A stretch of 64,000 nt of DNA from a virus, in IMG/VR virus record IMGVR_UViG_3300044591_002420, positions 61,004 through 125,003 of that record; one strand, 5' to 3'. The number at the start of each line of letters is the position of its first letter. The stretch's first letter is position 1. The position numbers were made by a program, and so were the translations under genes. Under the pieces are notes generated by a model. That model was given only the letters and a program-made list of their open reading frames with translations, made no database searches and was not told the origin of the DNA. Positions 2,483 through 47,554 of the stretch are shown one piece after another.

Positions 2483-2485
2483 ATT

Positions 2486-12791: not shown

Positions 12792-12956
12792 AGTTTATGG
12801 ATAACAAAAAAGGACAGTCTAAAATCCGTCCACCTCCGGCTCCACACTCTCCGATCTATGCTATGTTGATTAGGTCGGTGAGAGATCAATAATCCACCAA
12901 CCATCCACAACCACGTTCACTCCTGTTAGTATTCACACTGTCGTACTGAACCAACC

Positions 12957-14207: not shown

Positions 14208-14407
14208 ACTACAAGCTACTGCTTTATTTTCTACTCTTTGAGATTGGAGAGTTCACCGCATTTTGGCTGATCGCCGATTACATTCCACTAGCATTTACAC
14301 AACTACAGATCTTTATTGGTCTTATTGTTATTGATGTGGTAGTAACCGAAATCGTATTTCCTGGTGCATTTGTGACTCTTTACCGGAACATCTTTAACAA
14401 ACACTAA
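14204..14407 (+). CDS. Small two-TM membrane protein
   Basis: Two hydrophobic helices. Confidence 0.7.
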   Translation: MNYKLLLYFLLFEIGEFTAFWLIADYIPLAFTQLQIFIGLIVIDVVVTEIVFPGAFVTLYRNIFNKH

Positions 14408-14422
14408 TTGGAAATTTCTTAA

Positions 14423-14842
14423 ATGACAAAAAATGACGATTCGGTAATTTTTACTTTTTTCGCCTGGTGTGGATTGATTCTCGGCATTATCATTCTCGTT
14501 TTAGCGATCTTCGGTCCCTATTATTCTGTATGGCAACAGGGACTTGAGGGTAAATCAGAATTGATGAAAGCTGAATACACTAGACAGATCGCTGTTCTTG
14601 AATCCAAGGCTAAATTTGAAAGCGCAAAAGCACTAGCACAAGCTGAAGTAGAACGTGCAAAAGGAGTTTCACAAGCGAATCAGATTATCGCCAGCTCATT
14701 GAAAGATAATCCCGAATATCTTTCTTATCTTTGGATCACTGGACTTCAAGAAGGGGCTGATCATGGTAACAAAACCATTTACATGATCCCTTCACAGACA
14801 GCCATTCCCGCGCCAGTTTTTAATCTAGACAAAACCGCATGA
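14423..14842 (+). CDS. Membrane-anchored SPFH/band-7-like coiled-coil protein
   Basis: TM helix then AQAEVERAKGVSQANQIIASSL..YLSYLWI. Confidence 0.65.
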   Translation: MTKNDDSVIFTFFAWCGLILGIIILVLAIFGPYYSVWQQGLEGKSELMKAEYTRQIAVLESKAKFESAKALAQAEVERAKGVSQANQIIASSLKDNPEYLSYLWITGLQEGADHGNKTIYMIPSQTAIPAPVFNLDKTA

Positions 14843-14879
14843 TCCAATTTGGGTGCCTTTAATGGCGCCCATTCTTATT

Positions 14880-15125
14880 ATGAGCAAACTTGACCGGGCA
14901 AGAAATCCGAACACCCCACCAAAAGCACTAGAACAACTAGCATCCGATGAGCATTATCTTGTTCGGTATTATGTAGCAGAAAACCCAAATACTCCACCAA
15001 AAGCCCTAGAAATTCTAGCAAATGATGTGGATTATTGGATTCGTCGTTGGGTAGCAATAAACCCGAACACACCTCACTATCTCAAAAAGTATCTTAAAAT
15101 TCAAGAACAGCTTATCAAATTATGA
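14880..15125 (+). CDS. LRV repeat protein (2 repeats + C-cap)
   Basis: Repeat consensus and cap. Confidence 0.8.
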   Translation: MSKLDRARNPNTPPKALEQLASDEHYLVRYYVAENPNTPPKALEILANDVDYWIRRWVAINPNTPHYLKKYLKIQEQLIKL

Positions 15126-15433
15126 GAATTCTATCTATTTCATTAAATGCCATTATATTAGTCATTGACATTATCATTGTTTTGATTATCAATATCTTTG
15201 AGTTTGTCATTGCATTCTTAGCTATTTTATTGTTCAATAATCCAGACTATGAACCACTGATCAGTCAAGAAAGGCGGCTTAATTTCATAGATCAAATGAA
15301 TGATTCTTATCTAAAACTAAGTGAATTTAAACCTGAGAATTTTAAAACCGAGAATGATGCATTGGATTTCATAAATCAATATCTGAAAGACGCCAACCGA
15401 CTGTACTGGACAATGATCCTAGGTGACTCCTGA
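15122..15433 (+). CDS. Membrane protein
   Basis: Long hydrophobic N-terminus; ATGA overlap. Confidence 0.65.
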   Translation: MRILSISLNAIILVIDIIIVLIINIFEFVIAFLAILLFNNPDYEPLISQERRLNFIDQMNDSYLKLSEFKPENFKTENDALDFINQYLKDANRLYWTMILGDS

Positions 15434-22796: not shown

Positions 22797-22878
22797 TGCC
22801 ACTTTGAAAGCTGTCCACCACTGAGTTCTCAGCCACGTTATTGGTGCTATAGTACATTCTACCAACAAGGAGTTTTTA

Positions 22879-23283
22879 ATGTCAATCACAACTGAACAAC
22901 TAAAAGAGATTTTCAATAAAGTTCTTTCGGAAATTGAAAATCTAAATGTTGCGAACCTTTCTTATTTTGAAAAGAAATCGCTAGCTTGTGATCCCAAAAC
23001 CTCACCGGAAATCTTAGCAGTTCTGGCTACCGATGAGGATTCTCTTGTTCGTTATTTGGTAGCAAGAAATCCAAACACACCACCAAAAGTCCTAGAACAA
23101 CTAGCGACCGATGTGGAATATTGGATTCGTTGTTGTGTAGCAAAACATCCAAACTATGAAAAAGCTACTGTAAGGGTTCCAGATCTATCTGTGGCTGAAT
23201 ATAATGCCCTAAAAGAACTACTCAAAAATACACAAAATCAAAGTCTAAAATCTCTTTCCATCAAACTAGGAGTCATTCAATGA
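22879..23283 (+). CDS. LRV repeat fusion protein (2 repeats)
   Basis: Canonical repeats flanked by unrelated helices; AAGGAG RBS. Confidence 0.8.
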   Translation: MSITTEQLKEIFNKVLSEIENLNVANLSYFEKKSLACDPKTSPEILAVLATDEDSLVRYLVARNPNTPPKVLEQLATDVEYWIRCCVAKHPNYEKATVRVPDLSVAEYNALKELLKNTQNQSLKSLSIKLGVIQ

Positions 23284-34862: not shown

Positions 34863-35426
34863 ATGCCCATCACCAAAACAATCACTCTCTATAAGTTTGA
34901 TGAATTGAGCGAAGAAGCCCAGAAGTTTGCAATCTCCAATCTGTACGATTGGTGCTGCACAAACCACATAAATGCAGATCACGATTGGTCGGATCCCATT
35001 TATGAAGATGCCAAAACTATCGGTCTTAAGATTGAAGAATTTCATCTTGAACACAAGAAAATCAATGGAGCATTGACCGAATATCTTCTTGATTGTTGTC
35101 GTTCAATCCGACATAATCACGGTAAAGACAGTGATACATTCAATACTGCTCATCAATATCTACAAGAATACATTCAGGCATTTGTTAAATGGAAAGAAGA
35201 GAATAAAGATGATGATAACAAAGATTGGAAACCCGCTGATTGGTTATATGAATTCAAATATACTGACGAAGCCGATGAGATTACAAATGAATTCAGGAAA
35301 GCTCTGCTACAAGATTATCTTATCATGTTGGATAAAGAATATGATTATTTGACTAGCGAAGAAGCAATTAAACAATCAATGGAAGCCAATGAATGTCTTT
35401 TTCATGAGGATGGCACACTAGAATAA
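34863..35426 (+). CDS. Acidic early phage protein
   Basis: LYKFDELSEEAQ...LDKEYDYLTSEEAI..EANE.LF.EDG family motif. Confidence 0.8.
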   Translation: MPITKTITLYKFDELSEEAQKFAISNLYDWCCTNHINADHDWSDPIYEDAKTIGLKIEEFHLEHKKINGALTEYLLDCCRSIRHNHGKDSDTFNTAHQYLQEYIQAFVKWKEENKDDDNKDWKPADWLYEFKYTDEADEITNEFRKALLQDYLIMLDKEYDYLTSEEAIKQSMEANECLFHEDGTLE

Positions 35427-35444
35427 AACTCTTCCATTAACTAA

Positions 35445-35522
35445 CATCTGCTTCGGTATTATTATATCGGAGCATTTGTTATATCTTTACATTTAGCCTT
35501 AATAACAGCTTATAGTGTCCGT
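35445..35522 (-). ncRNA. Putative ACGG-leader small RNA, copy 1
   Basis: Minus-strand TATAAT (35530-35535) 30 nt from palindrome 35566; ACGG start; hairpin 35449-35474. Confidence 0.45.
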
Positions 35523-35647
35523 AAGAGTTATTATACACGATACAATGCACTAATGGTCCATGAGTGTTCCAGTTTATCAAGTGTCCACTGCTGCTGTTAT
35601 TCCTCCATAATATGGGTTATTGTTATTAAGTCTTCAGGGAAACAACA

Positions 35648-35815
35648 ATGTTTGATTTCATCAACGATCGCAATCTGATTATCATTGCACTTCTTTGTAT
35701 TGCTGGAGTAGGATCAATTCTTTACGGTCTTTATGCCCTCTTTGGTCTTTATGGAATCGTTATTCCTATTGGAGTCTTAGCATCATTGGTTCTTTTCTAT
35801 AACACTCGCTACTGA
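35648..35815 (+). CDS. Small membrane protein (not in track)
   Basis: Hand-translated 55-aa hydrophobic ORF after palindrome 35566. Confidence 0.6.
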   Translation: MFDFINDRNLIIIALLCIAGVGSILYGLYALFGLYGIVIPIGVLASLVLFYNTRY

Positions 35816-36020
35816 TAACACTATGGATAAAGTGAACATGGTATTTCTTATTATCCAAACCACTGTAGCTTTATATTTCACCTTCTTTCTTGATAATCTC
35901 ACTCATAAGGCATTTAAGGAACTGGATGTAGACAAAAGGCGTCTTATTTCATGGGGAATGTTCTTTCTTATGCTCATCTCTCTCAATACTTTTAACTGAA
36001 CTCAAAGGTTTCTTCATATA

Positions 36021-36047
36021 GCTAGGACTAATAATCCTAGCTTTTTA
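36021..36047 (+). terminator. Intrinsic terminator
   Basis: GCTAGGA-loop-TCCTAGC followed by TTTTT. Confidence 0.75.
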
Positions 36048-36781
36048 TTGTCTAATAATCTAATAACATAAATAATAACAGGTAATAACAATCCTCTTAC
36101 ACCTCCGGCCTCTGTAGTCACTGTCTCAAAGAGATCAAATTACACACCACTAAGGTTCTTAAAGATTAAAAATCCTACTTCCAACCGAATAACAAAAAAC
36201 AGTAATAAAACTGATTATATTTTATTGCTTATAATAATTCAAGTAGAAAGCGTTAGCGCGATCTACGATTTTTTAGTATCTGCGTGTACCAGTTTATCAA
36301 GTGTCCACTCGTGGTTGCTTGATCTTTTAATACCTGTTATATTGTTAATGACCTAAAAGAATTCCACTCATCATGCTAATGATTTTTATCATTTACTTCT
36401 ACATGGTCACTTGCACATATTGGGCTCTTGTTGCATTACGAACTCCGAGTAATTTTTCCGAACGACTTCTTGTACTACGGGATGATATAAGTCCTTATCA
36501 ATGCTTTGGTTATTATGTTGACGATGTGACAGAAGAGGATCTGGCACAGTCTCCACTCCAACCGATTCAATGATCTGTTATTCTAGTTTCAGCGGTTGAA
36601 CAACTGGCACAGTCTAGCGAGCATACAGATTGCATTATGGTGGCCGGTATTGATTCCAAGTGTTTTTATTGCTAAAATCCTAAAGGATTTGGATTCTTTA
36701 TGACACTCCATAAGCTGTCCACTCAACTCCAATAATCCCAGCACTATCCGCTAACATGATTACTGTTATTGGAATTCTTCA

Positions 36782-37109
36782 ATGAAAATCAACTGGCTTA
36801 ATATTCTTATTTGTTTGATAGGAATTATTAGTAACATTATTCTTTTTAATTTGCTTTTCGGGCCAGGTCCCCATCTTTCTGCAATGGTACTTGGTATTGT
36901 ATGGGGACTGTTTTTCCCATTTATTGATATTGAGTGATCCAATGAAAATCAACTGGCTTAATTTCTTTTATTGGCACCTTGTCAATCAGGTTTCATTAAC
37001 AGTGTTTACTGTGTTCTTTGGTCCTGTAGACATTTTGACAGCAATAATAACTGGTACTTTCTGGGGTGTAGTATCAAATTACACTCTTCCGATTTTTTAT
37101 TACGAATGA
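36782..37109 (+). other. Tandem paralogous small membrane genes (36782..36937, 36942..37109)
   Basis: Both start MKINWLN from identical DNA and share FGP..G..WG. Confidence 0.65.
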
Positions 37110-37341
37110 TGCCACACCACAAGTACATTGTTGAAGTTAGGAACATTGATGGTTCCTTGGCAAGTTTTTCAGAACAGGAAAAGAAAAGACAAGAACATCC
37201 ATATCTCTTTTCAAAAGAAGAATTTACAATAGATGAACTTTGTTATTATGCGTCATTTGGACAGAAGAGAAATTTTCCAATTGGTCCTGTAGGTTTGCCC
37301 AAATTTATGCAAGATATTGGTATTTCTTATCGGCTTAAAAC

Positions 37342-37551
37342 ATGGTAACAACCCATTCATTATTAGAAAGTTATGAAATCCATCTTAAACGTTGTTATAC
37401 CGCAATAAGTTTAGACACACCAATAAAAGATCTATTGTTATTAGTAACTGACGAGAATTATTTTATTTGGGATTTGGTAGCAGAAAATCCAAACTGCCCA
37501 CATTATATTAAAAGATACATTGTAATTAAAAAGTATCTAATGAGACTGTGA
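37342..37551 (+). CDS. Degenerate LRV protein (1 repeat + cap)
   Basis: TDENYFIWDLVAENPNCPHYIKRYI. Confidence 0.7.
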   Translation: MVTTHSLLESYEIHLKRCYTAISLDTPIKDLLLLVTDENYFIWDLVAENPNCPHYIKRYIVIKKYLMRL

Positions 37552-37630
37552 CACTTCATAAGCTGTCCACCGGGACCACCGATTCCCAATAATCCGCTGT
37601 ATTGTTATTAAGTCCACAAAAGGAATTTCA

Positions 37631-38368
37631 ATGTCTTCTCTCACTCCTGAACAACTGTCCGACCTTCTTGACGATACCTTTGACGGTTATTGTGAACATA
37701 TTCTTGATAATGTAGATCAAAATACGGTCGTTGGAGTTAAGATTACCACAGAGGTAACACATTCCGATGGTTCCATTACGGAATTTGTTGATATTCACAC
37801 TCCAACAGAAGAATCATCTAGTGTCAACAAGAAACCCGCTCAACAAGAAAATAGACCCTATCGTAGCAACTGTTTTCCTGACGACAAATAATAACCACTA
37901 ACCCACCCACATCTCTTTTCTTCCAATGACAAAATCAAACAACGTCAAGCTAACTCTCACGGTTCAACTTGAAGTGGATCTTGGAAAAAATGGTCTCACA
38001 ATTGAAGATTTTGTTTCTGAATTGAAAAGTGGTTATCAATCATTCCATCCACAAGGAGCTTATATCATTTCCGAGAAAATTGTCCGACACGATGTTAATG
38101 GTACCCATCCAGATTTTGACCAATGAGCACCACCAATCAGGCAATTTTTGAGAATCATCTGAAGAATGCTTATGAGGATCTCTTTGCTAACAATCCAGAG
38201 TATTCTTATGCTGCTAGCAGAACAACTCCTGTAGAACTCGCTCATAAAATGACAGAATCTCTTGTAACTGGGCAAGGAAATAAAGACGGTGATGGTATCA
38301 AAAGAGCATGTAAAGCTGTAGGAATTAAACACACTTATAAAGCGATCAAAGAATATCTTAACCAATAA
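37631..38368 (+). other. Three hypothetical genes (37631, 37926, 38123)
   Basis: Co-directional ORFs after palindrome 37548. Confidence 0.7.
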
Positions 38369-38390
38369 CAATACAATTCCAATAACATTT

Positions 38391-38563
38391 GCTGAGGTAT
38401 AACAATACTTCAGCTTTTGTTATATTCTTATTTTTTGTCTTAAAAATAGAATAGGCTTCCCGTATCTGTATTCTACTGATGGCGTTGGTATCTGTCAAGC
38501 ATTCTTCCATAAGCACTTCTGATCGGTTGAGAGGTTGACTTAAGCGGTTCCAGGGTCTATATT
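38391..38563. promoter_or_regulatory. Cassette A: hairpin + reverse sigma70 promoter + central operator + forward sigma70 promoter
   Basis: Minus TTGACA(38493-98)-N17-TAGAAT(38470-75), ACGG at 38463; plus TTGACT(38535)-N17-TATATT(38558). Confidence 0.85.
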
Positions 38564-38590
38564 ATGGAAGTCACTCAGACAAGCCTTCTC

Positions 38591-38974
38591 ATGTCCCGGA
38601 ATCCCGCTCCCGAACTGAAGCACGACATTGTAGTTCATGAGGGTTTCGTAACCCTATCTAATAACAATGATGGTTTCTATACACAATACTTCAATAATCG
38701 GGAAGAGGTTGAGCAATTCATCGCTGAACTTCGTGAGGCAATGGATAACATTTGGCCGGATGGTGTTGATCCTCAAAAACTACAGGAAGAATGTTATCAA
38801 AAACGAGAGGAAGAGCGTCAAGAATACTTGCGCAATAATCCTCCTCGGCCACTAACACCAGAAGATATTGAACGTAATAAAAGGTTAGTGGAACTTCTCA
38901 ATAAACTGGCTAATGATGATTCCTATTATATTCGTTCTCATGTTGCGGAAAATCCCGGATTCATCACACCATAA
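38591..38974 (+). CDS. Hypothetical protein with C-terminal LRV fragment
   Basis: LANDDSYYIRSHVAENP at the C-terminus. Confidence 0.7.
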   Translation: MSRNPAPELKHDIVVHEGFVTLSNNNDGFYTQYFNNREEVEQFIAELREAMDNIWPDGVDPQKLQEECYQKREEERQEYLRNNPPRPLTPEDIERNKRLVELLNKLANDDSYYIRSHVAENPGFITP

Positions 38975-39286
38975 GAACCTATCCACAACATAATGCGATA
39001 ACAACCCACTCTACCACTACCTTTTCAGCGACATTATTGTGCTCAGTGAGTCCTTTATCCTTGAGCACATTTTTGTAGCTGAGATCCAAGATGATATAAA
39101 TAAATCTAAAAAACCTTTTATCGGGAATTTCGGTCTGAAGGTGCTACGGGTCATTCCGTCAAATAAGATCACCGATAATTTCATTGTTATAATAAATGTT
39201 ATGTGTCAGTCCATAAGCTGTCCACCGATACTCTCATGTTCCCATAATCTGCTGTATTGTTAAGAAGTCTCCAGAGAATGTTTCTC

Positions 39287-39673
39287 ATGGCTCACTATTT
39301 CAGTCTTGCTGAAAATCCTCACACAGATCTTAGAACTCTCGTACGTCTGGCTCATGATGGTGATAATCCTCTTACGGATGCGGAATGTGATAAAATCATC
39401 GCTGAGAATAACGAGCGTGCTCGGCAGCTAGAAGAGGCCAGGCTTAATAGGCCCATTCTTCCACAAACATGGACAGATAGATATGATATTATTGAGAAAT
39501 CTATTCCCTACGGTGGAACTGTTGGAAATCCTGTAACAGAGGGTATCCAAAAGGTCGTCACACTTAGGATTATTGACGAAGTTGATTATTCTGTTCATGT
39601 TAATTTCTACAACAGAAAAGAACTGAATAAATTTATTTCAGAATTGCTACAAGTCTCAGATCATCTTGATTGA
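39287..39673 (+). CDS. Hypothetical protein with N-terminal LRV fragment
   Basis: LAENPHTDLRTLVRLAHD at the N-terminus. Confidence 0.7.
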   Translation: MAHYFSLAENPHTDLRTLVRLAHDGDNPLTDAECDKIIAENNERARQLEEARLNRPILPQTWTDRYDIIEKSIPYGGTVGNPVTEGIQKVVTLRIIDEVDYSVHVNFYNRKELNKFISELLQVSDHLD

Positions 39674-39701
39674 ATACGAGACAATAACAATTCAATTTAC
39701 G

Positions 39702-39728
39702 AGAGGTGGAGTTTTCTACCTCTTTTTT
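39702..39728 (+). terminator. Intrinsic terminator
   Basis: AGAGGTGGA-loop-TCTACCTCT followed by a T run. Confidence 0.75.
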
Positions 39729-39830
39729 ATATGAACTATAGATCGTGTGCCAGTCCATAAGCTGTCCACCATTATCCCCACCCGACGAGATTTCTGGTTA
39801 TTGTTAAGAAGTCTTCAGAGAATGTTTCTC

Positions 39831-40265
39831 ATGGCCCCCAACATCAGCAGTTTTCATCCATTGTGGTTGATCCATCTTTTTAGTTGGCGAGATATTGCAG
39901 CGCTTATTGGCAGTAGAGCTATCTATGGACGGAATGCTAGCCATGAAAGTGATTTTGATTATATTTTTCCTGAGGGAACAAAGAATGCTGCAATCAATGT
40001 TCTCAATAAAAATAACGTTCAATTTACAACTAACAATTTCGGAACTATTAAAATTGTTGTTGAAGTTCGTGATTATGCTATACCTTTTTGTTTTAACATT
40101 ATTTTTCTTGACGAATGTAATTTCGCGGCATGGTCTAAAGCGACTAAGTTGTTAAAAGTTATTCTTAACGAGGTAAATATCAATAAAACGGATAGACTGA
40201 AAATGTTCAATTCTCTGGTGCAAGAATTTGGTGGAGCTGCAATCACCAATACACCAAGTTTCTGA
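39831..40265 (+). CDS. Minimal nucleotidyltransferase (pol-beta superfamily)-like protein
   Basis: LIGSRA...ESDFDYI = GS..DxD motif. Confidence 0.6.
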   Translation: MAPNISSFHPLWLIHLFSWRDIAALIGSRAIYGRNASHESDFDYIFPEGTKNAAINVLNKNNVQFTTNNFGTIKIVVEVRDYAIPFCFNIIFLDECNFAAWSKATKLLKVILNEVNINKTDRLKMFNSLVQEFGGAAITNTPSF

Positions 40266-40287
40266 TCCTGATCCTGATAACAATAAT

Positions 40288-40457
40288 AACCCTAGAGTAA
40301 TTCTGGGGGTTTTTATTGTTTATATTTTGATAAGAAAAATAGAATAGGTTTCCCGTATCTGTATTCTACTCATGATCCAACAGTTTGTCAAGGTCCGGAA
40401 TGATAAAATGTTCTTATCGGTTGTGGCCTTGACAAATTCCTAAAAGAGGTTTATTGT
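40288..40457. promoter_or_regulatory. Cassette B (divergent sigma70 promoters, ACGG RNA start 40356)
   Basis: Minus TTGACA(40386-91)-N17-TAGAAT(40363-68); plus TTGACA(40429)-N17-TATTGT(40452); terminator 40288-40314. Confidence 0.85.
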
Positions 40458-40482
40458 ATGAAAGACGAATCTCACAGGATCC

Positions 40483-40782
40483 ATGATCACCCGTCAGCAG
40501 TATCTTTCTTCCCCATCTTCTCTTCATCACGAGTATTTTCTTCAATTTTCTAATCCTGTTATTCGTGGTATTCTTAAGAGATCAATTTTTGATTCTGATA
40601 AAAAGTTGAAAGAAAGCACTGATCCACATTTTAATGATATTCCACTGAAATGGTGGGATGATATTGCAAATTTTATTGCCCCGTATATCAATAACACCAA
40701 ACTCGTTGAGTTGGGTGAAATCAATTCACTAAGCACAAGAGTTTGTATTTTGAAAGCTATTGCCCAAGAAATGATCAAATAG
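40483..40782 (+). CDS. Hypothetical early protein
   Basis: Follows cassette B; DPHFNDIPLKWWD. Confidence 0.75.
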   Translation: MITRQQYLSSPSSLHHEYFLQFSNPVIRGILKRSIFDSDKKLKESTDPHFNDIPLKWWDDIANFIAPYINNTKLVELGEINSLSTRVCILKAIAQEMIK

Positions 40783-40801
40783 GATTGTTTTCAAATGAGT
40801 A

Positions 40802-40977
40802 ATGAGTCAGGTATTCTTATACTTGGCTCATTTTTATATTCTTATTTTTAAGAAGAAAAATAGAGTAGTATGTCCGTAAGATTATTCTAGTCGTTATATT
40901 CAGAAAATGGTCTGCTCCCGTGCCAGTTTGAGAAGTGTCACAACCTATGAGAACGGCGATCAAAATTCCACTATTAT
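40802..40977. promoter_or_regulatory. Cassette C (palindrome-driven divergent promoters, ACGG RNA start 40877)
   Basis: Palindrome 40920-40941 with minus TAGAAT (40884-89) and plus TATTAT (40972-77), each exactly 30 nt away. Confidence 0.75.
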
Positions 40978-41001
40978 GGTATGAACCACGGAATTTCTCA
41001 C

Positions 41002-41247
41002 ATGAGTATCCCTGATCCTTCTCAGGCAACCGCCATTCTTAACCGTTGCGACTGCCAAACTGTCGCCGCTGCTACTCTCCCGGTTTGGAATAAGTTTCTG
41101 AATGACCTTAGTCTCCCCGCAGACCTTTATGATAATGTTGAGGATATGATTAACATTCTTGAATATATCAAAGATTGGCAACCTTCCGATGCTGACATAA
41201 TTAAAAACAATTCTTGTGGTACTGCATGGCATGATGGATGCCTTTGA
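41002..41247 (+). CDS. Hypothetical protein
   Basis: ATG after cassette C. Confidence 0.6.
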   Translation: MSIPDPSQATAILNRCDCQTVAAATLPVWNKFLNDLSLPADLYDNVEDMINILEYIKDWQPSDADIIKNNSCGTAWHDGCL

Positions 41248-41384
41248 TTGATTATACATGAAATAATCAGTATAGTATAAAGATCGGAAATAGTATGCTC
41301 CTGTGCCAGTTTGAGAAGTGTCCACTGACTCACTGAAATGGTGTGTTTATCCGCCATAATACAAAGGTAATCGCAATTCTTCTC

Positions 41385-41834
41385 ATGCGACTTGAAACCG
41401 TCAATCGTCATCTGGGAGAGATTGAGTGTATTATTCAATCGGTTTATAGTGCCGCGAAGTGTCATCTCCTCTCATCAGAACAGATCAACGCTGAAATTTA
41501 TCGGAGAGTTCTTGATACAAATAAGTATAAAAATCTTCCCATGTGGGCAAAAGATAAGGTGTATGATATTATCAAACATTTCAGGAAAAAAACAATAGAT
41601 ATGTATGTTCGGTTGTTTTATATTGGTCTGGATGATAGAAAGATTCCCACTCACAAAGCATGGGATCTTTTCACCGAAGAAGAGAAAGAATTGTGCCGAA
41701 CACCTAATGGCTTAGTAATCCATCATATTTGGATGAGAGAAACAATCCAAAGAAACGATGATGGAAGTGAGATTATCACTCTCAATCCTACTGATAAAGT
41801 ATATTGGTGTTCTAAGATTAAAGAAACAGAATAA
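41385..41834 (+). CDS. Hypothetical protein
   Basis: ATG after palindrome 41303 and a TTCTC leader. Confidence 0.7.
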   Translation: MRLETVNRHLGEIECIIQSVYSAAKCHLLSSEQINAEIYRRVLDTNKYKNLPMWAKDKVYDIIKHFRKKTIDMYVRLFYIGLDDRKIPTHKAWDLFTEEEKELCRTPNGLVIHHIWMRETIQRNDDGSEIITLNPTDKVYWCSKIKETE

Positions 41835-41841
41835 TAACATC

Positions 41842-42004
41842 AGCCAGGTTTAATCCCTGGCTATAAACTTATATTTTCTCTTAAAAATAGAATAGGTTTC
41901 CCGTATCTGTATTCTACTCATGATCCAACATCCTGTCAAGCATTCTTCCATAAGCATTCCTGATCGGTTAAGGGCTTGACGTGGGCATCAATCCGGTCCA
42001 TACT
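41842..42004. promoter_or_regulatory. Cassette D (ACGG RNA start 41904)
   Basis: Minus TTGACA(41934-39)-N17-TAGAAT(41911-16); plus TTGACG(41976)-N17-CATACT(41999). Confidence 0.85.
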
Positions 42005-42190
42005 ATGGAAGTCAACCGGAACCGAACCGATGGCCCAAACATTCCGCCCTGTCTGCGACATTCAGAGCAGAAATCCGTTCATGGTAGCGGTAGTCAAAGA
42101 TGATAAGAATCTTCTCATCGACAGTGAGCCTTCAGTGGTTCCGATGTCGTGGATTGCCGCTGAGTACGCTAAACAATATGGAAAAGTGAA

Positions 42191-42775
42191 ATGAGCAATA
42201 ATAAATTCCGAATCGTTAAGTATAACGGTTCCTTTGAAGAATGTGAAGTTCTTCAAGTCTGTCACTCGTATGAGGAAGCAGACCAAAGATTCCAATACTG
42301 GGATGATAAATATACGAACGATTATATTGAGAACGATTATATTGAGATTCTCACTCCAGAAGACTGGAGAAATTTTCAATTAGGTTCTAATCCCTTAGGT
42401 TCTAATCCATCATTGATGTTCCAAACAAGTTACACGATCACCGGCCGTCTTCAACGCCAATTAGCGGCAGTTGCTACTCCAATTGTCGAGGATTGGTTCA
42501 CAGATGTATTGATTCACGATACTGCCGCTGTCAAAGATATGGAAATTGGCGAAGTTCGTTTATGGGCACTTCGCAAAACGGGTACATGGTTGTGTACTCT
42601 GAAGCAAGATATTTCTGAGTATAACGAATTTTCTGGACTTATCACCAAAATTATGAAAAGACCCGATGAATATAATGACGGATATTATCATCTTTTTCTA
42701 TTGCATAAGATCTCAGCAGATAAGCTGAAGATCACACCGACAACTTATGAAGAAATGTCCTATGTGAATGTGTGA
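42191..42775 (+). CDS. Hypothetical protein
   Basis: Long co-directional ORF. Confidence 0.7.
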   Translation: MSNNKFRIVKYNGSFEECEVLQVCHSYEEADQRFQYWDDKYTNDYIENDYIEILTPEDWRNFQLGSNPLGSNPSLMFQTSYTITGRLQRQLAAVATPIVEDWFTDVLIHDTAAVKDMEIGEVRLWALRKTGTWLCTLKQDISEYNEFSGLITKIMKRPDEYNDGYYHLFLLHKISADKLKITPTTYEEMSYVNV

Positions 42776-42785
42776 GATAATAAAT

Positions 42786-42953
42786 GCCCCGGAGAAATCT
42801 GGGGTTTTTTATTGTTTATATTTTGATAAGAAAAATAGAATAGGATCTCCGTATCTGTATTCTAGTCATATTTTTATCGGTTGTCAAGGTCTGAACTGAT
42901 AAAATGTTCTTATCGGTTAAAGGGTTGACAGATTCCTAAAAGCGGTTTATTGT
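42786..42953. promoter_or_regulatory. Cassette E (ACGG RNA start 42852)
   Basis: Minus TTGACA(42882-87)-N17-TAGAAT(42859-64); plus TTGACA(42925)-N17-TATTGT(42948); terminator 42786-42810. Confidence 0.85.
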
Positions 42954-42983
42954 ATGAGAGTCAATCCATCAAGGCTCTCTCTC

Positions 42984-43523
42984 ATGTATAGTTCTCTCCG
43001 CGAAAAATGCAGGAATTATACTGGCAATGTTTCTCTCAGAAGGGAACGTCTTAATAATGGCGGATACACTAAAGATGGTGTATATTTTGGTGTCGGTGAT
43101 CGTCTATATTATATGGCAGATGAAGATGGAATTTATGATCATTATTTTCGTGCAACATGCCGAGAAGAAGCTATTGAAATCGGAAAGGTAACGTATCCTA
43201 ATGGCAAGTTTCGCAAATAATACTTTGTTACCGTAATTCATCCAATCGCATTTAATTCAATGTCAATTCGCTACACAATTCAACGATTCGCTGATTCTGG
43301 AAACTGGGCTGATCCAGAAGGAAACGAAGTGCGTCATTATTCCAATAAGAAAGAAGTCAATGATGATCTAGATTATTGGGCTGATGTAGTTGAACGTCAT
43401 GATGATCGGCGGGATGCTTATCTTATGGTTTGGTGTGGAGAATTGGAAGATGTAACCGATCAGTATCCAGATTTTAAGGTAACAATCGGCCCCCGTGGGG
43501 GTATCAATTGGGAATCATGTTGA
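42984..43523 (+). other. Two small early genes (42984..43220, 43260..43523)
   Basis: RLNNGGY..G.YFG and GPRGGI motifs. Confidence 0.7.
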
Positions 43524-43550
43524 ATTGAATAACAAATACAAACACATTTG

Positions 43551-43723
43551 CTAGGGTATAACAATACCTGACCTTATCTTATAGCCTTATATTTTGTTGA
43601 AAAAATGAGATAGTCTGTCCGTATCTCTATTCTACTGGTAATAATCCAGGTTGTCAAGGTCTGGAGTGATAAGCATTTCTGATCGGTTGAAGGCTTGACG
43701 TTTGCCGCTGGTGGGTCCATACT
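43551..43723. promoter_or_regulatory. Cassette F (ACGG RNA start 43622)
   Basis: Minus TTGACA(43652-57)-N17-TAGAAT(43629-34); plus TTGACG(43695)-N17-CATACT(43718). Confidence 0.85.
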
Positions 43724-43753
43724 ATAGAAGTCAACCAAACCGGAAGGTTTCCG

Positions 43754-44427
43754 ATGGACGCCACTAACCATCCCGAACCGCTTGATAATGTTTATGTGGA
43801 AGAAGAATTTGGTCATTATGAAATGACATTGCGGAGATTTTCGAGAGAGGATCTTATTCTTTTCTGCACTATTCTCGAAAATGCTGAACATAGGGGAGAA
43901 TCTAATGAATTCATCAATGGAACAAGACTTGAAATTGAATCTTTTATTATGGAGGTGAATTGATCTGTTTTCTTATTCTTATTCCATCGCAATTCTCATC
44001 ATGGCAATGTACATCAACAACGAAGAATTTTCCCAAACCACGTACTATGTTGGTGAATACCTATCTTTAGGTGATGTGAAGATCAATCAAGTCCAGGCAG
44101 ATGGGGACGAATTGTTGCTTTGTATGAGAATTTTAAGAATTGAAAAGATAGACAATAGAGTACACATATTTGTGGGTGATGAAGCCCGCGAAATTATTTC
44201 CAATTGGAATAACTATCAAAAGCTATATTCTTAACAATAACCATTCCATCGCAATTCTTCTCATGAACGCTTACAGCCTTTCCGCATCACAAGCTAGAGA
44301 AAAGATCATTGAATGGGGAGAAGAAATCTCTTTTGAGACTGTCTGTCGTGAAATTGTGTCACGAATGAGCGGCGATGAAGCCCGCGAATTTGTGGAGTAT
44401 TTTCATGATAATGTCCTGAACAACTGA
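43754..44427 (+). other. Three small early genes (43754, 44001, 44263)
   Basis: Packed ORFs; 44001 and 44263 have repeated GCAATTCT(C) leaders. Confidence 0.65.
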
Positions 44428-44635
44428 TCTAATTTCTTATTCCTTTGCAATTCTCATCATGACTTACATTCTCACAGGTGTTGATCGTTCGGGCAAGCGA
44501 TTCAGGAAAGAATCAACAAATTGTTATTATCTTTCCTGTCATAATGTATGGCGAGGAAACTTATGGGAGCAAGATCCCGTTACAGGAAAAAGAAAGAAAA
44601 TCAAATCTTGGTACAATTGAGTAACAAATACAAAC

Positions 44636-44815
44636 ACATTTGCTAGGGTATAACAATACTCTAGCATTTGTTATAGTCTTATATTTTGTTGAAAAAATAG
44701 AGTAGGCTTCCCGTATCTGTATTCTACTGACAATAATCCAGTTTGTCAAGATCTGGAGTGATAAAATGTTCTTATCGGTTAAAGGCTTGACGGTGGCCGC
44801 TGGTGGCTGTATATT
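44636..44815. promoter_or_regulatory. Cassette G (ACGG RNA start 44714)
   Basis: Minus TTGACA(44744-49)-N17-TAGAAT(44721-26); plus TTGACG(44787)-N17-TATATT(44810). Confidence 0.85.
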
Positions 44816-44840
44816 ATGAGAGTCCCGATGGATTCCTTCC

Positions 44841-45152
44841 ATGCGAAAGATTGAAAAAGAGATGAATCTTGCCATCGCTGAATATCGCAACTGGCAAGAA
44901 GGAAACACAAGAGTAGAGCATTTTCAGGAGAAAGTTTCAGTCTTTCTGTACAATCATCTTATTGCAGAAATCGGCGATAATTATATCATTCTCTATGATG
45001 GTGGTCACCGGACGGCAACAACAAAAAGCAGGCTTAACGCTATTCTTTCTGGGAATGGAAAAGGTGATGAAAAGGTATATCAAAAAGATCGTGAGTGGCG
45101 CATTTCTTATGATAAAAAGGATGAACCTTTCGTATCTGGAATGACAATCTAA
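44841..45152 (+). CDS. Conserved-type cyanophage early protein
   Basis: MRKIEKEM..AI...LYNHLIA...DGG..TATTKSRLNAIL. Confidence 0.8.
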   Translation: MRKIEKEMNLAIAEYRNWQEGNTRVEHFQEKVSVFLYNHLIAEIGDNYIILYDGGHRTATTKSRLNAILSGNGKGDEKVYQKDREWRISYDKKDEPFVSGMTI

Positions 45153-45174
45153 TTATTCTACATTCTCTACATCG

Positions 45175-45384
45175 GCTCCGGGAATATCTCGGAGCTTTTT
45201 TATTGTTTATATTTTCCTCTTAAAAACAGCATAAGTTCTCCGTAGTTATATTCTAGCTGATCCATAAATTCAGTCTGTATCAACCGATACAGTTTGAGGA
45301 ATTTTCATAATCAGCAGATCTTATGGATCAGATTCCTGAAATGGTATCAACCGATACAGACAGGATCTGTGAGCCGATTATGAT
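45175..45384. promoter_or_regulatory. Cassette H: divergent promoters with two NtcA-type boxes (ACGG RNA start 45243)
   Basis: GTA-N8-TAC at 45277-90 and 45344-57; each is 21 nt from a -10 box (minus TAGAAT 45250-55; plus TATGAT 45379-84). Confidence 0.65.
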
Positions 45385-45531
45385 TGATCCACGCCAACCC
45401 TAGGCTCTTTTTTGATATAGTAAATTGAATTGATTATTAGTTTGTTATTTGTTATATTATTATGGCTCCATAACCCCGCACCCATAGGGTGGAACCGTGC
45501 TAGGATCTGAGAGAACCTCAGGGAATCCCCT

Positions 45532-47097
45532 ATGACTCGCATCCTCTCCCCCCAGCAGGCCGCCGCCATCGCAGCCGCGATTAAATCAGCGCAACACCAG
45601 ATCATCCCGTCTGTGGCTGGGAGCGGGAAGACTACCGTATTGGTAGAGATTCCGCGTCTTATTCCTACAACAAAGACTGTAGCATTTTGCGCATTCAACA
45701 AGAATATCGTACAAGAGATTGAGTCCCGAATTGCACAGGAGATTAAATCAAGAATTGAACAATACAATAACGAGCAGGAATTTATGAACCCAATTGCAGA
45801 GTGTAATCTAGAGAATGTTAAGGTCGGAACCTTACACTCTTTCGGATTCGGCGCGATCCGTCGCGCTGTCTCCCGCGTCAAGGTTGACGGCAATAAGCTA
45901 AAGAATCTTGCCAGACAGGAATTTACCGGAGAGTATGAAAATCTCCAACAGTTTGTTATTCCTGCCGTCGCAATGGCGAAGGAAATCGGAATAGGTGCAA
46001 TCGTAGAAGATAATATAAAGAATTGGTCCGATATGTTGGATCACCACAATCTCTGGGATTCTCTGCCCGATAAGGTATCACCAGAACAGGGTATTGATGC
46101 GGCGCAATACCTTTTGCGATATAATAACAGTATTAAAAATGTTATTGATTATTCGGATATGATCTACTTTCCTGTTCTTTTTGGAATGAGAATCTGGCAG
46201 TATGATTATGTACTTTTAGATGAAGCACAGGATACTAATGGCCCCCGGCGGGCGTTAGTTAAAATGATGCTGAAGAAAGGCGGCAAACTTATAGCGGTGG
46301 GTGATCCACACCAAGCCATTTATGGCTTTACAGGGGCAGATAATAGGTCGTTAGATATTATTAAGGAAGAATTTAATGCTATTGTTACACCTTTGAGTGT
46401 TACATTCCGCTGTCCTAAAAAGATCGTATCACTCGCTCAATCATGGGTGAGTCACATTGAAGCCCACGGGGAGGCGCCAGATGGGATCGTTGACCGTTGC
46501 GAATTAGCTGAGATTGTTAAACTCACCAATCCTAAAGATGCGATCATTTGTCGCAACACCAAACCACTTGTGGAGCTTGCGTATAGCTTTCTCCGCAATT
46601 CTGTTGCATGTAAGGTAGAAGGTCGTGCAATCGGGGAAGGTTTAGTTAAACTCGCCCAGCGTTGGAAAACGCTAAAGAGTGTCGGAGAATTGAGTGCAAA
46701 AATATCTCAGTGGGCAGAAAGTGAGATTGAAAAGAATAAAGTTAAAGGTAACGATTCCCGTTGCCAAGTTATTGACGATCAGGCGAAAACGTTAGAGGTT
46801 TTTATTGATCAGTGTGACAGTTCCGATCCTATTAGCGTACTTGTGGAGAAGATTCGGTCTCTCTTCAGCGATACAGAAGGGGAGCAGAAAGTGCTCACAT
46901 TATCAACGATTCACAAGGCGAAAGGTAAGGAATGGGATAGAGTATTTGCGCTGGGGATGGATACTTATTCTCCATCAAAGTGGGCAAGGAAAGAATGGGA
47001 AGTGGAGCAGGAATATAATCTCTGTTATGTGCAAGTTACCAGATCAAAGCATCATCTCACTCTCGTCAATGTTCCAGTGAAAGTGAAGAAGTCATAA
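45532..47097 (+). CDS. UvrD/Rep-like superfamily 1 helicase
   Basis: AGSGKTT, AFN, GTLHS, LDEAQD, VGDPHQAIYGFTGA, TFRCP, STIHKAKGKEW, YVQVTRSK. Confidence 0.93.
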   Translation: MTRILSPQQAAAIAAAIKSAQHQIIPSVAGSGKTTVLVEIPRLIPTTKTVAFCAFNKNIVQEIESRIAQEIKSRIEQYNNEQEFMNPIAECNLENVKVGTLHSFGFGAIRRAVSRVKVDGNKLKNLARQEFTGEYENLQQFVIPAVAMAKEIGIGAIVEDNIKNWSDMLDHHNLWDSLPDKVSPEQGIDAAQYLLRYNNSIKNVIDYSDMIYFPVLFGMRIWQYDYVLLDEAQDTNGPRRALVKMMLKKGGKLIAVGDPHQAIYGFTGADNRSLDIIKEEFNAIVTPLSVTFRCPKKIVSLAQSWVSHIEAHGEAPDGIVDRCELAEIVKLTNPKDAIICRNTKPLVELAYSFLRNSVACKVEGRAIGEGLVKLAQRWKTLKSVGELSAKISQWAESEIEKNKVKGNDSRCQVIDDQAKTLEVFIDQCDSSDPISVLVEKIRSLFSDTEGEQKVLTLSTIHKAKGKEWDRVFALGMDTYSPSKWARKEWEVEQEYNLCYVQVTRSKHHLTLVNVPVKVKKS

Positions 47098-47122
47098 ATC
47101 ATACGAACAATTAGCTATTCTT

Positions 47123-47317
47123 TATCCCCGACTTAATTGTTGGGGATATTTTTATATCGGATGATGTGTTTGTTATATTATTATACTTTATGAAAAAACA
47201 GTACAGGGCTCCCGTTGATTTAATTATACAGCCGAGGCTGGCCATAGTCAAGGTCTGGAGTGATAAGCATTCCTGATCGGGTAAAGGCTTGACGGTGGCC
47301 GATGGTGGCTGTATATT
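47123..47317. promoter_or_regulatory. Cassette I (ACGG RNA start 47215)
   Basis: Minus TTGACT(47246-51)-N17-TATAAT(47223-28); plus TTGACG(47289)-N17-TATATT(47312); hairpin 47123-47147. Confidence 0.85.
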
Positions 47318-47554
47318 ATGGGTGTTCTAGACATTCCTGGCAGGTTGCCGGCTCCACCGATGCGATTCTCAACCCCACAAAAGATCTCCAAATTTTTCTA
47401 TCTGGGATTGAATCCTAATTCTTATGATGAGATTTTCGGATTCTCATTATTCAATTTCTACGTCGGATTCTACTACGAATCTGGCTGGTGTGCGGGATTT
47501 CTTGACGCGAACGGGTGCCTCTGAAAGTATTACAATCCTCTCGCAGTCTTTCTC

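What the first reader, a model, noticed from the sequence alone, without database searches (positions are those of the whole stretch)
35445..47317. Array of ten divergent-promoter cassettes, each firing an ORF-less conserved short RNA (ACGG-N13-U-run) backwards into a terminator
Seen: seven cassettes (38391, 40288, 41842, 42786, 43551, 44636, 47123) have a near-perfect minus-strand TTGAC(A/T)-N17-TA(G/T)AAT back-to-back, 36-37 nt apart, with the forward promoter. Three more (35445, 40802, 45175) keep the same reverse -10 box and downstream unit but use other upstream elements. In all ten, ACGG begins 6-7 nt after the -10 box, followed by exactly 13 nt (GAAGCCTATTCTA, GAAACCTATTCTA twice, ACATACTACTCTA, AGATCCTATTCTA, ACAGACTATCTCA, GAAGCCTACTCTA, AGAACTTATGCTG, GAGCCCTGTACTG, ACACTATAAGCTG), then a T-rich run, an AAAATATAA-like tract and the upstream gene's terminator hairpin (about 60-95 nt, no ORF). 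The promoter spacers diverge freely while the boxes, spacing and ACGG unit are kept, which implies selection. Inference: a multi-copy phage small-RNA system, e.g. decoy or anti-defence RNAs, R-loop replication primers like T4 transcription-primed origins, or RNAP traps. It resembles the mobile PeSL promoter/stem-loop cassettes of T4-type phages, but I do not know of a described reverse transcript like this.
Basis: partly seen in the sequence, partly recalled or inferred. Interest (0 to 1): 0.88.

Follow-up and report, generated by a model that had tools for sequence, protein, structure and literature searches.

The report
Backward promoters in cyanophage gene cassettes
A freshwater T4-like cyanophage separates its small early genes with repeated control cassettes of about 190 bp that carry the expected forward promoter plus an even better backward-pointing promoter, whose short non-coding transcript runs toward the previous gene's terminator hairpin; what this does is unknown but easy to test.

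Summary
All ten minus-strand units (TA[G/T]AAT, 6-7 nt, ACGG, 13 nt, then a T-run in 9 of 10) sit where stated and nowhere else on that strand of the 125-kb phage record. Seven have a near-consensus TTGAC(A/T)-N17 -35 box (7 matches, 0.19 expected). These seven make up 7 of only 12 sites scoring 11/12 or better in the whole record.

The window is a T4-like cyanomyovirus; gp6 is 64% identical to Synechococcus phage B3. The units belong to PeSL-like terminator/promoter cassettes that bound small early-gene modules.

Seven related contigs carry 24-26 more copies. In all of them the boxes, the 36-37 bp back-to-back spacing and the first ~23 transcribed bases are kept, while the spacers diverge.

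- ACGG is ACAG in about half the relatives' copies.
- Only 1 of 10 hairpins scores as a terminator in the backward direction.
- In three relatives the same unit faces forward, ahead of a helicase gene.
- One cassette replaces both -35 boxes with NtcA sites.

Best reading: real backward early promoters forming a two-way boundary module. A trans-acting RNA or R-loop role is not excluded. No RNA data could be obtained. The scan has noted similar backward promoters before in two other T4-like phages.

The parts
35449..35611 (.). Cassette A: hairpin 35449-35474, variant backward unit, class-B forward element CCAGTTTATCAAGTGTCCAC (35569) and CATAAT (35606-35611)
38391..38563 (.). Cassette B: hairpin 38391-38414, AT-rich linker, backward and forward promoters back-to-back (gap 36)
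40290..40457 (.). Cassette C: hairpin 40290-40308, two-way promoter (gap 37)
40801..40977 (.). Cassette D: hairpin 40801-40832, variant backward unit, class-B forward element (40923) and TATTAT (40972-40977)
41841..42004 (.). Cassette E: hairpin 41841-63 (the only one flagged as terminator-like on the minus strand), two-way promoter (gap 36)
42786..42953 (.). Cassette F: hairpin 42786-42805, two-way promoter (gap 37)
43551..43723 (.). Cassette G: degenerate hairpin (not flagged by the scan), two-way promoter (gap 37)
44641..44815 (.). Cassette I: hairpin 44641-44666, two-way promoter (gap 37)
45174..45384 (.). Cassette H: hairpin 45174-45196, backward unit and forward promoter, each served by a GTATCAACCGATAC (GTA-N8-TAC) site instead of a -35 box; lies before the helicase gene 45532-47097
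47123..47317 (.). Cassette J: hairpin 47123-47148, two-way promoter (gap 37); its backward start region can form a 5-bp hairpin followed by a T-run (47215-47203)
35500..35558 (-). Backward unit A: GACCAT-N17-TATAAT-N7-ACGG-ACACTATAAGCTG-TTATTA; +1 at 35522
38441..38498 (-). Backward unit B: TTGACA-N17-TAGAAT-ACAGAT-ACGG-N13-TTTTT; +1 at 38463
40334..40391 (-). Backward unit C; +1 at 40356
40855..40912 (-). Backward unit D: GACCAT-N17-TAGAAT-AATCTT-ACGG-N13-TTTTT; +1 at 40877
41882..41939 (-). Backward unit E; +1 at 41904
42830..42887 (-). Backward unit F; +1 at 42852
43600..43657 (-). Backward unit G; +1 at 43622
44692..44749 (-). Backward unit I; +1 at 44714
45221..45290 (-). Backward unit H: NtcA-type site (45277-45290)-N21-TAGAAT-ATAACT-ACGG-N13-TTTTT; +1 at 45243
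47193..47251 (-). Backward unit J: TTGACT-N17-TATAAT-N7-ACGG-N13-TTTTTT; +1 at 47215
38535..38563 (+). Forward promoter B: TTGACT-17-TATATT (10/12)
40429..40457 (+). Forward promoter C: TTGACA-17-TATTGT (10/12)
41976..42004 (+). Forward promoter E: TTGACG-17-CATACT (9/12)
42925..42953 (+). Forward promoter F: TTGACA-17-TATTGT (10/12)
43695..43723 (+). Forward promoter G: TTGACG-17-CATACT (9/12)
44787..44815 (+). Forward promoter I: TTGACG-17-TATATT (10/12)
47289..47317 (+). Forward promoter J: TTGACG-17-TATATT (10/12)
45344..45384 (+). Forward NtcA-type promoter of cassette H: GTA-N8-TAC-N21-TATGAT, facing the helicase gene

Best explanation
Each unit is a genuine early promoter for the host's primary-sigma RNA polymerase. 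It is built into a symmetric two-way promoter module that marks the boundary of an exchangeable early-gene cassette, a PeSL-like element. The layout on the + strand is: the previous gene's terminator hairpin, about 45 bp of very AT-rich DNA, the backward promoter, a 36-37 bp partly palindromic A/T-rich region shared by both promoters, and the forward promoter for the next small genes. The backward promoter is TTGACA-N17-TAGAAT and starts at A of ACRG. Polymerase starting there makes an ORF-less RNA that reaches the previous hairpin after 41-67 nt, which gives 64-93 nt if it ends there. I think the selected role acts in cis at the boundary. A frequently firing or occupied backward polymerase, together with its short RNA antisense to the previous message's 3' hairpin, would seal each cassette off from read-through. 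It may also help the weaker forward promoter, because the two polymerases sit four helical turns apart on the same DNA face and transcribe away from each other. I do not think a specific RNA sequence acting elsewhere is the main point. Shown: sequence architecture, conservation pattern, spacing, alternative activator sites, absence of an ORF. Inferred: that transcription starts there, the RNA ends, and all of the function.
For: 1. Promoter quality. The seven units score 11/12 and account for 7 of the 12 best sigma-70 matches in 125 kb. Their forward partners score only 9-10/12.
2. Signs of selection. The nhmmer profile was built from 7 of the 10 window cassettes and does not require the boxes. 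It finds 7 cassettes in the window, 7 in L007, 6 in L046, and 1, 2, 2, 2 and 3 in L138, L139, L143, L145 and L148. Every one has an intact backward promoter.
3. Conservation by segment among 28 distinct units: spacer identity 0.45 with 23 variants, -35 0.99, -10 0.93, +18 to +22 T in 27-28 of 28. The box values are inflated because the units were collected with a regex that requires the boxes.
4. Fixed geometry. The gap between the two -35 boxes is 36 (17 rows), 37 (12 rows) or 68 (3 rows) across 32 rows.
5. Initiation is the feature being kept. Cassette H retains the -10 and the ACGG unit but swaps the -35 box for GTA-N8-TAC at the canonical 21-nt distance. That full motif occurs only twice in 64 kb, both times in this cassette and once per strand (0.31 expected; 4 of 100 shuffles reach 2).
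6. Boundary role. The modules between cassettes differ among relatives that are 79-97% identical where they align. L007 has no HSP of 300 bp or more covering window 39300-41882 or 42930-47246, and L046 shares only 41349-41918 and 45810-47156 of the array.
7. The RNA varies from copy to copy: 19 variants of the 13-mer and several visibly different 3' hairpins. That does not fit one trans target.
8. The architecture recurs with unrelated sequence. Contig L065 has 7 back-to-back pairs in 8.9 kb, and in at least 3 of them the backward -10 lies within about 10 nt of a stop-codon-plus-hairpin. Two earlier notes from this scan describe the same layout in other T4-like phages (not checked by me).
Against: A pure insulator or coupling role does not explain why the discriminator and +1 to +23 are so constrained. 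The discriminator ACARAT has identity 0.78. A is at +7 in 28 of 28, C at +10 in 25, T at +11 in 27, and a T-run always sits at +18 to +22. This points to a role for the 5' RNA or for a DNA site there. In L046, L145 and L148 the same unit faces forward about 170 nt before the helicase ATG. The unit can therefore also be an ordinary gene promoter, and the T-run cannot be a full stop. A class-B forward element at 36289 stands without an ACGG unit, so forward promoters do not strictly need one. The statistic for breakpoints lying in cassettes is weak: 3 of 14 HSP ends for L007, where the cassettes cover 16% of the region. Read-through between same-strand early genes is normal in T4, so the need for insulation is not obvious (recalled knowledge). 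There is no transcript evidence of any kind.
Confidence: 0.4

Rival explanations
1. A multi-copy family of short early regulatory or decoy RNAs acting in trans. The conserved 5' 23 nt (ACRG-NNANCCURYYYWA-UUUUU) would be the working part, and the borrowed terminator hairpin would stabilise the RNA. Ten strong promoters would give a high dose early in infection.
For: The start region is constrained well beyond what a promoter needs. The predicted RNAs have a typical sRNA layout: a single-stranded AU-rich 5' part followed by a 3' hairpin, 64-93 nt in all. The unit is absent from one representative genome for each of 185,579 species; the 2 hits found both lack a -35 box. It is therefore phage-specific and not borrowed host DNA.
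Against: Positions +5, +6 and +8 are free and the 3' halves differ between copies. There is no Rfam match. The backward RNAs show no complementarity above shuffled controls to the forward mRNA leaders of 19 cassettes (mean z -0.34). The forward-facing copy before the helicase would make this 'RNA' merely an mRNA leader. Analogous backward promoters in L065 start within about 10 nt of the hairpin, leaving no room for a seed.
Confidence: 0.2
2. Long antisense transcription. Most backward hairpins leak, so the strong backward promoters transcribe the preceding early genes in antisense. This either shuts them off (interference, RNase III) or shields the messages from RNase E as duplexes.
For: Only 1 of 10 hairpins is terminator-like on the minus strand, and the 12 nt after the folded structures contain few U residues (1-7 of 12). 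The backward promoters are stronger than the forward ones. [quoted passage not shown]
Against: Strong constitutive antisense from a better promoter would cripple every early gene unless it were timed. No timing element was identified. The tightly fixed distance to the hairpin (41-49 nt in 8 of the 9 cassettes with a scored hairpin) suggests the hairpin is the intended end. Three hairpins (40290, 41841, 42786) do have U-rich tails in the backward direction.
Confidence: 0.2
3. Transcription-primed R-loops. The backward RNA stays hybridised in the AT-rich stretch and primes replication or stimulates recombination, which would also explain why cassettes are the places where modules are exchanged.
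For: A promoter followed by an easily unwound segment is the layout of the T4 oriF/oriG origins and the T7 primary origin (recalled knowledge). The 40 bp after the start rank in the top 0.1-10.7% for ease of melting, and 4 of the 30 least stable 40-mers in the window lie in cassettes. Module content differs between relatives at the cassettes.
Against: Ten origins within 12 kb is implausible. The AT-rich stretch is also simply the forward terminator's T-tract plus intergenic DNA, and 26 of the 30 least stable 40-mers lie elsewhere. The RNA start has only 2-3 G residues and is U-rich afterwards, which disfavours stable R-loops (general knowledge).
Confidence: 0.12
4. A relic without function. 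The two-way module arose by inverted duplication of one promoter and is copied around by recombination between cassettes, so the backward half merely hitch-hikes.
For: The module is pseudo-palindromic: the nhmmer profile hits its own reverse complement over positions ~75-129. In the helicase cassette of three relatives both halves are the same unit.
Against: Hitch-hiking would conserve spacers and boxes alike. Here the spacers have 23 variants at 0.45 identity while the boxes stay intact in every cassette found. Two cassettes keep the -10 and start region with a different -35 hexamer, and one replaces the -35 box with an NtcA site.
Confidence: 0.08

Closest known systems
PeSLs (promoter-early stem-loops) of T4-type phages RB49/phi1, T4/PST and KVP40/nt-1 (Arbiol et al. 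2010, PMC2839356; Comeau et al. 2014, PMC4122927)
   Same: Repeated composite elements with a sigma-70-like early promoter plus a stem-loop/terminator and an AT-rich part. They sit between small ORFan genes in a hyperplastic region, and close relatives differ by whole modules bounded by them.
   Different: PeSLs as described are 50-100 bp and one-directional. In passages found by term search, the two papers do not mention 'antisense' or 'bidirectional', and the hits for 'opposite' concern other matters. In RB49 bases 1-50,000 of 164,018 I found 27 sites at 11/12 or better on the gene strand, 0 on the other strand, and 0 back-to-back pairs. Here the cassettes are about 165-210 bp and carry a second, better promoter pointing backward with a constrained start region. 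PeSL density was reported to be low in cyanophage S-PM2 (PMC4503421, passage).
NtcA-activated promoters in cyanomyoviruses (Sullivan et al. 2010, PMC3037559, passages)
   Same: Cassette H has GTA-N8-TAC 21 nt upstream of a TAnnnT box on each strand. The paper reports 1-16 NtcA sites per genome in 16 cyanomyoviruses.
   Different: Here two identical sites form a divergent pair, and one of them drives the ORF-less backward unit and not a gene.
Lambda PR'-tR' '6S' transcript and Q antitermination (recalled, not checked in a paper here)
   Same: A strong constitutive promoter fires a short ORF-less RNA into a nearby terminator, and a -10-like TAnnnT element often lies in the initial transcribed region (for example TATTCT at +11 to +16).
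   Different: No Q-like gene or binding site was identified. There are ten copies, and nothing lies downstream on that strand to antiterminate into except antisense of early genes.
T4 oriF/oriG and T7 primary origin: a promoter followed by an unwinding element (recalled)
   Same: A promoter fires into about 45 bp of very AT-rich DNA.
   Different: The number of copies differs, no origin function has been shown, and the AT-rich stretch is not exceptional for this genome.
Backward-facing promoters at cassette boundaries noted earlier by this scan in two other T4-like phages (e1-5862173, e1-5341754; AI notes)
   Same: A terminator followed by a backward near-consensus promoter at exchangeable early-cassette boundaries, with the closest known element given as PeSL.
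   Different: The sequences differ: one has a TAAAGG -10 box. A look-up with a window cassette found no look-alike. I did not re-examine those genomes.

Membership tests
PeSL regulatory cassettes | Sigma-70-like early promoter co-directional with the downstream gene | tested here: met
   Seven forward TTGACN-17-TAnnnT sites scoring 9-10/12 lie directly before + strand ORFs.
PeSL regulatory cassettes | Adjacent stem-loop able to terminate upstream transcription | tested here: met
   Nine of 10 cassettes have a hairpin found by the scan: 8 on the + strand with a T-tail and 1 (41841-63) scored on the minus strand only. 43551 is degenerate.
PeSL regulatory cassettes | Repeated in a hyperplastic region among small ORFan genes | tested here: met
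   Ten copies lie within 12 kb between ORFs of 41-194 aa plus one helicase. Of the 8 array ORFs scanned against PHROGs, 3 hit a family (helicase, phrog_18883, phrog_554) and 5 hit none.
PeSL regulatory cassettes | Insertions, deletions or replacements between close relatives bounded by the elements | tested here: inconclusive
   Whole modules between cassettes are present or absent in L007 and L046. However, only 3 of 14 (L007) and 2 of 4 (L046) HSP ends fall within cassettes, which cover 16% of the region.
PeSL regulatory cassettes | Mini-circle formation by recombination between elements | not testable with these tools
   Requires inverse PCR on infected cells.
NtcA-activated (class II) cyanobacterial promoter | GTA-N8-TAC about 22 nt upstream of a TAnnnT -10 box | tested here: met
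   Two matches in 64 kb, both in cassette H and one per strand, against 0.31 expected. Binding was not tested.
Any curated RNA family (Rfam 15) | Covariance-model match | tested here: not met
   No hits at gathering score over 64 kb. At E of 1 or less over 35300-47450 the only hit was RsaF at 23.1 bits against a gathering score of 60, E 0.92.
Intrinsic terminator acting on the backward transcript | G+C-rich hairpin followed by a U-run on the minus strand | tested here: inconclusive
   One of 10 is flagged (41863), and by eye 40290 and 42786 also have U-rich tails. The rules for cyanobacterial terminators may differ.
Transcription-primed origin (T4 oriF/G type) | Promoter plus downstream DNA-unwinding element, and a persistent R-loop | tested here: inconclusive
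   The promoter is present. The downstream 40-mers rank in the top 0.1-10.7% for ease of melting but are not unique. R-loop formation cannot be tested here.

The most novel reading that the evidence does not exclude
The backward units form a dedicated phage system in which the conserved 23-nt start (ACRG..CCUR..U5) is the business end. Either about ten strongly expressed early RNAs act in trans, for example by soaking up a host RNA-binding factor, a nuclease or a defence sensor. Or the nascent RNAs stay on the AT-rich DNA as R-loops that prime replication and drive the recombination that shuffles cassettes. Either way, the strongest host-type promoters of this phage region would exist to make non-coding RNA and not protein.
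Probability: 0.2. Interest if true: 0.85.

Novelty: new variant of a known kind. Interest (0 to 1): 0.6.

Why it matters
T4-type phages are the textbook case of early transcription, and their hyperplastic regions are where new genes are tried out. In this lineage the best host-type promoters of that region point backward, away from every gene. They are kept intact in every copy across eight sequence sources, which means a layer of early-gene control or genome plasticity has not been described. If the module insulates or boosts cassettes, it explains how single genes can be swapped between phages and still be expressed correctly. It would also be a compact, portable two-way promoter part for cyanobacteria. 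If the RNA itself is active, it would be a new class of phage small RNA. The NtcA-driven copy further links one such unit to host nitrogen status.

Tried and rejected
RNA evidence: the look-up of sequencing runs (window 38300-47400, kind rna) listed no RNA holder. Read laying was therefore never used.

Close DNA relatives among cultured phages: megablast of window 38300-44700 and blastn of one cassette gave no match.

The inverted repeat TAGAATA-N15-TATTCTA, present in the window cassettes that end in TAYTCTA, was considered as an operator or as a terminator for incoming antisense RNA. It was rejected as the selected feature because the L046-type copies do not keep it.

A mini-hairpin within +1 to +13 followed by the T-run was considered as a very early terminator. 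It forms convincingly only in cassette J (5 bp) and in the ACAG...CUGU copies (4 bp). Elsewhere only 2 pairs are possible, with no compensatory changes, and the forward-facing copy before the helicase also argues against it.

Complementarity between backward RNAs and forward mRNA leaders was tested on 19 cassettes from 3 of the 8 sources. The mean z against mononucleotide shuffles was -0.34, so there is no signal.

Host origin of the unit: one scan of genome contigs gave 2 hits, both without a -35 box.

It was useful only for finding L046 and L065.

Phage B3, the nearest cultured relative, was checked over 42 kb around gp6. There were no back-to-back pairs at 10/12 or better and no nhmmer hit. 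It has its own five-copy cassette family.

Breakpoint statistics were weak.

The Syn9 start-site paper (Doron et al. 2016) is not held, so I could not check whether backward starts were reported there. I recall only its existence. Supplementary files were not consulted, and the PeSL lists in the supplements of PMC2839356 and PMC4122927 could bear on orientation.

Literature searches for a described backward promoter of this kind found none.

Full report
What the window is. The window is the last 64 kb of a 125,003-bp viral record that is about half complete. It contains T4-type baseplate genes, and its gp6 is 64% identical in protein to gp6 of Synechococcus phages B3 and B23. It is therefore an uncultured T4-like cyanomyovirus. 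The metagenome contigs that share its cassettes have sample names suggesting fresh water, which I did not pursue. From 34.8 to 48 kb the ORFs I take as genes are on the + strand and mostly small.

The observation. All ten units are present. The regex TA[GT]AAT-N6/7-ACGG-N13 has 12 matches in the whole record: ten on the minus strand at the stated sites and two on the + strand elsewhere. The full promoter-plus-start pattern has 7 matches against 0.19 expected. These seven score 11/12 against the sigma-70 consensus, whereas the forward promoters beside them score 9-10/12. Across the 125 kb only 12 sites reach 11/12, and seven of them are these. Aligning the ten cassettes shows that the whole intergenic element is repeated. 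Its order is: terminator hairpin, T-rich/AT-rich linker, an A-run, the backward unit, 36-37 bp, the forward TTGAC-N17-TAnnnT, and a conserved ATGRARGTC start region. I make two corrections. Cassette 35445 has TTATTA where the others have a T-run. Only one of the ten hairpins (41863) is scored as a terminator in the backward direction. The hairpin lies 41-49 nt from the start in eight of the nine cassettes with a scored hairpin and 67 nt in cassette J, giving RNAs of 64-93 nt if they end there (coordinates; folds).

Relatives and selection. An exact-pattern scan of IMG/VR found one close relative, L007, with several copies; the other 15 loci were single chance hits, mostly within a coding sequence. 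A second scan found L046. A metagenome scan returned 18 loci, five of which (L138, L139, L143, L145, L148) carry cassettes. The nhmmer profile was built from the seven canonical window cassettes and does not demand the boxes. It recovered 7 in the window plus 2 partial hits to the variant cassettes, 7 in L007, 6 in L046, and 10 in the five metagenome contigs. Every one of these has TTGAC(A/T/G)-N17-TAnnnT-N6/7-AC(G/A)G-N13-T-run on the expected strand. None had lost it.

Among 28 distinct units, the 17-nt spacer has 23 variants and 0.45 mean identity. The -35 box (0.99), the -10 box (0.93; TAGAAT in most), the discriminator ACARAT (0.78), the start ACRG, A at +7 (28 of 28), C at +10 (25), T at +11 (27), a purine at +12 (27) and the T-run at +18 to +22 (27-28 of 28) are all kept. 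The box values are inflated because those units were collected with a regex requiring them, but the nhmmer result shows that no cassette lacks them. The gap between the two -35 boxes is 36 or 37 bp in 29 of 32 rows. It is 68 bp in 3 rows, where a 32-bp insert carries a GTATC-N5-GATAC palindrome. A centre-to-centre distance of 42-43 bp is four helical turns, so two polymerases would sit on the same face of the DNA. This is the signature of a working promoter with a constrained start region. It is not the signature of a repeat copied passively.

Three further observations shape the reading. First, cassette H keeps the backward -10 box and ACGG unit but has GTATCAACCGATAC exactly 21 nt upstream in place of a -35 box, and a second identical site 21 nt before a + strand TATGAT that faces the helicase gene. 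The motif GTA-N8-TAC-N21-TAnnnT occurs nowhere else in the window. This is the known architecture of NtcA-activated promoters, which are common in cyanomyoviruses (PMC3037559, passages). Second, cassettes 35445 and 40802 share another hexamer, GACCAT, at the -35 position. They also share a forward element, CCAGTTT-N-AAGTGTC, that recurs at 36289 without an ACGG unit and, in similar form, in phage B3. Third, in L046, L145 and L148 the cassette before the helicase gene is fully symmetric, and its forward half is also TTGACA-N17-TAAAAT-ACCAAT-ACGG-N13-TTTTT, about 170 nt before the helicase ATG. The unit is thus a promoter-plus-leader module that can face either way, and the T-run cannot be an efficient stop.

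Context: exchangeable cassettes. L007 is 79-97% identical to the window where the two align, yet it lacks whole inter-cassette modules, including the helicase, and has others of its own. L046 shares only two pieces of the array. This matches the modular shuffling described for PeSLs (PMC2839356 abstract and passages; PMC4122927 abstract and introduction). My breakpoint count is too small to be significant: 3 of 14 ends fall in cassettes covering 16% of the region. The PeSL papers describe one-directional elements, and a term search in both found no mention of antisense or bidirectional promoters. As a control I scanned RB49, the type PeSL phage, over bases 1-50,000 of 164,018. There were 27 sites at 11/12 or better on the gene strand, none on the other strand, and no back-to-back pair. 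The backward promoter is therefore not a general PeSL property. It is not unique to this lineage either. An unrelated contig, L065, has seven back-to-back pairs in 8.9 kb, and in at least three the backward -10 box abuts a stop-codon-plus-hairpin. This scan has also twice noted backward promoters at cassette boundaries of other T4-like phages (unchecked notes).

How it most likely works. I read the element as a two-way promoter module at cassette boundaries. Host polymerase with the primary sigma factor would bind both halves early. The backward one makes a short ORF-less RNA toward the previous hairpin. I give 0.4 to a cis-acting boundary role: blocking or colliding with read-through, pairing with the 3' hairpin of the previous message, and possibly helping the weaker forward promoter through shared upstream DNA and divergent transcription. 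The points in its favour are the fixed geometry, the recurrence of the layout with unrelated sequences, and the variability of the RNA between copies. The main point against it is the strong constraint on +1 to +23, which this model does not explain.

The rivals are as follows. A trans-acting small-RNA family gets 0.2. It is favoured by the constrained start. It is disfavoured by the variable positions, the differing 3' halves, the forward-facing copy, and the lack of complementarity to the cassette mRNAs. Long antisense RNA through leaky hairpins gets 0.2, with the RNase E protection precedent in PMC3113571. R-loop priming gets 0.12; the AT-rich stretch melts easily but is not exceptional. 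A functionless relic gets 0.08 and is contradicted by the contrast between boxes and spacers.

Novelty. No Rfam family matches. The unit is absent from representative cellular genomes. I found no paper describing it, although the Syn9 start-site study could not be read. I class it as a new variant of a known kind, namely PeSL-type cassettes. The phenomenon is worth a direct test because the strongest host-type promoters of this phage region point away from every gene.

Noticed in passing
L017 (Synechococcus phage B3, MN695334) 11274-15340: B3's hyperplastic region has its own five-copy intergenic cassette family of about 250 bp. After the terminator comes a conserved module containing CTGCAGGAGAAGTGTCCTG, a TAnnAT-like box, and a small hairpin whose stem changes in a compensatory way (CGC/GCG, GAGC/GCTC, GCGG/CCGC) followed by a T-run. 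A CCAGTTTTCTAACTGTCCAC element and a -10 box follow. There are no back-to-back sigma-70 pairs. It shares TTTATTGTTTATA after the terminator and the CCAGTTT...GTCCAC element with the window.
   Followed up: partly
window 35569, 36289 (exact copies) and 40923 (variant): A second class of forward control element, CCAGTTTATCAAGTGTCCAC, lies 17-30 nt before a -10-like box. The copy at 36289 has no ACGG unit, but a 10/12 minus-strand promoter-like site (36242-36214) and a terminator (36020-36042) lie upstream of it.
   Followed up: partly
L046 4423-4570; L145 275-420; L148 (minus strand) about 999: In three cassettes the shared region between the two -35 boxes is 68 bp and not 36-37 bp, owing to a 32-bp insert carrying a GTATC-N5-GATAC palindrome. 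This resembles an NtcA site but with 9-nt spacing.
   Followed up: no
L065 (IMG/VR contig) 800-8600: An unrelated phage contig (GC 0.38, GGAGG ribosome sites) has seven back-to-back consensus promoter pairs in 8.9 kb. In at least three, a stop codon and hairpin are followed at once by a backward TTGACA-N17-TATACT and, 24-26 bp further on, a forward TTGACA promoter.
   Followed up: partly
window 45532-47097; L046 5530-7025: The helicase gene (PHROG 1967) is itself a cassette-bounded module. It is present in the window and in L046 and absent from L007. Its leader shares CCGTGCTAGGAT and a T-run with L046, but its promoter differs: NtcA-type here, the ACGG unit there.
   Followed up: partly
window 43735-43760 and relatives (L007 about 8290, L046 about 4555): Several forward transcripts begin with a small hairpin CCGGAAGGTTTCCG placed directly before the ATG, and no clear Shine-Dalgarno sequence is present.
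   Followed up: no
window 22857-22885, minus strand: A solitary TTGACA-18-TAGAAT (11/12) lies far from the array and has no ACGG unit. It may be a chance match.
   Followed up: no
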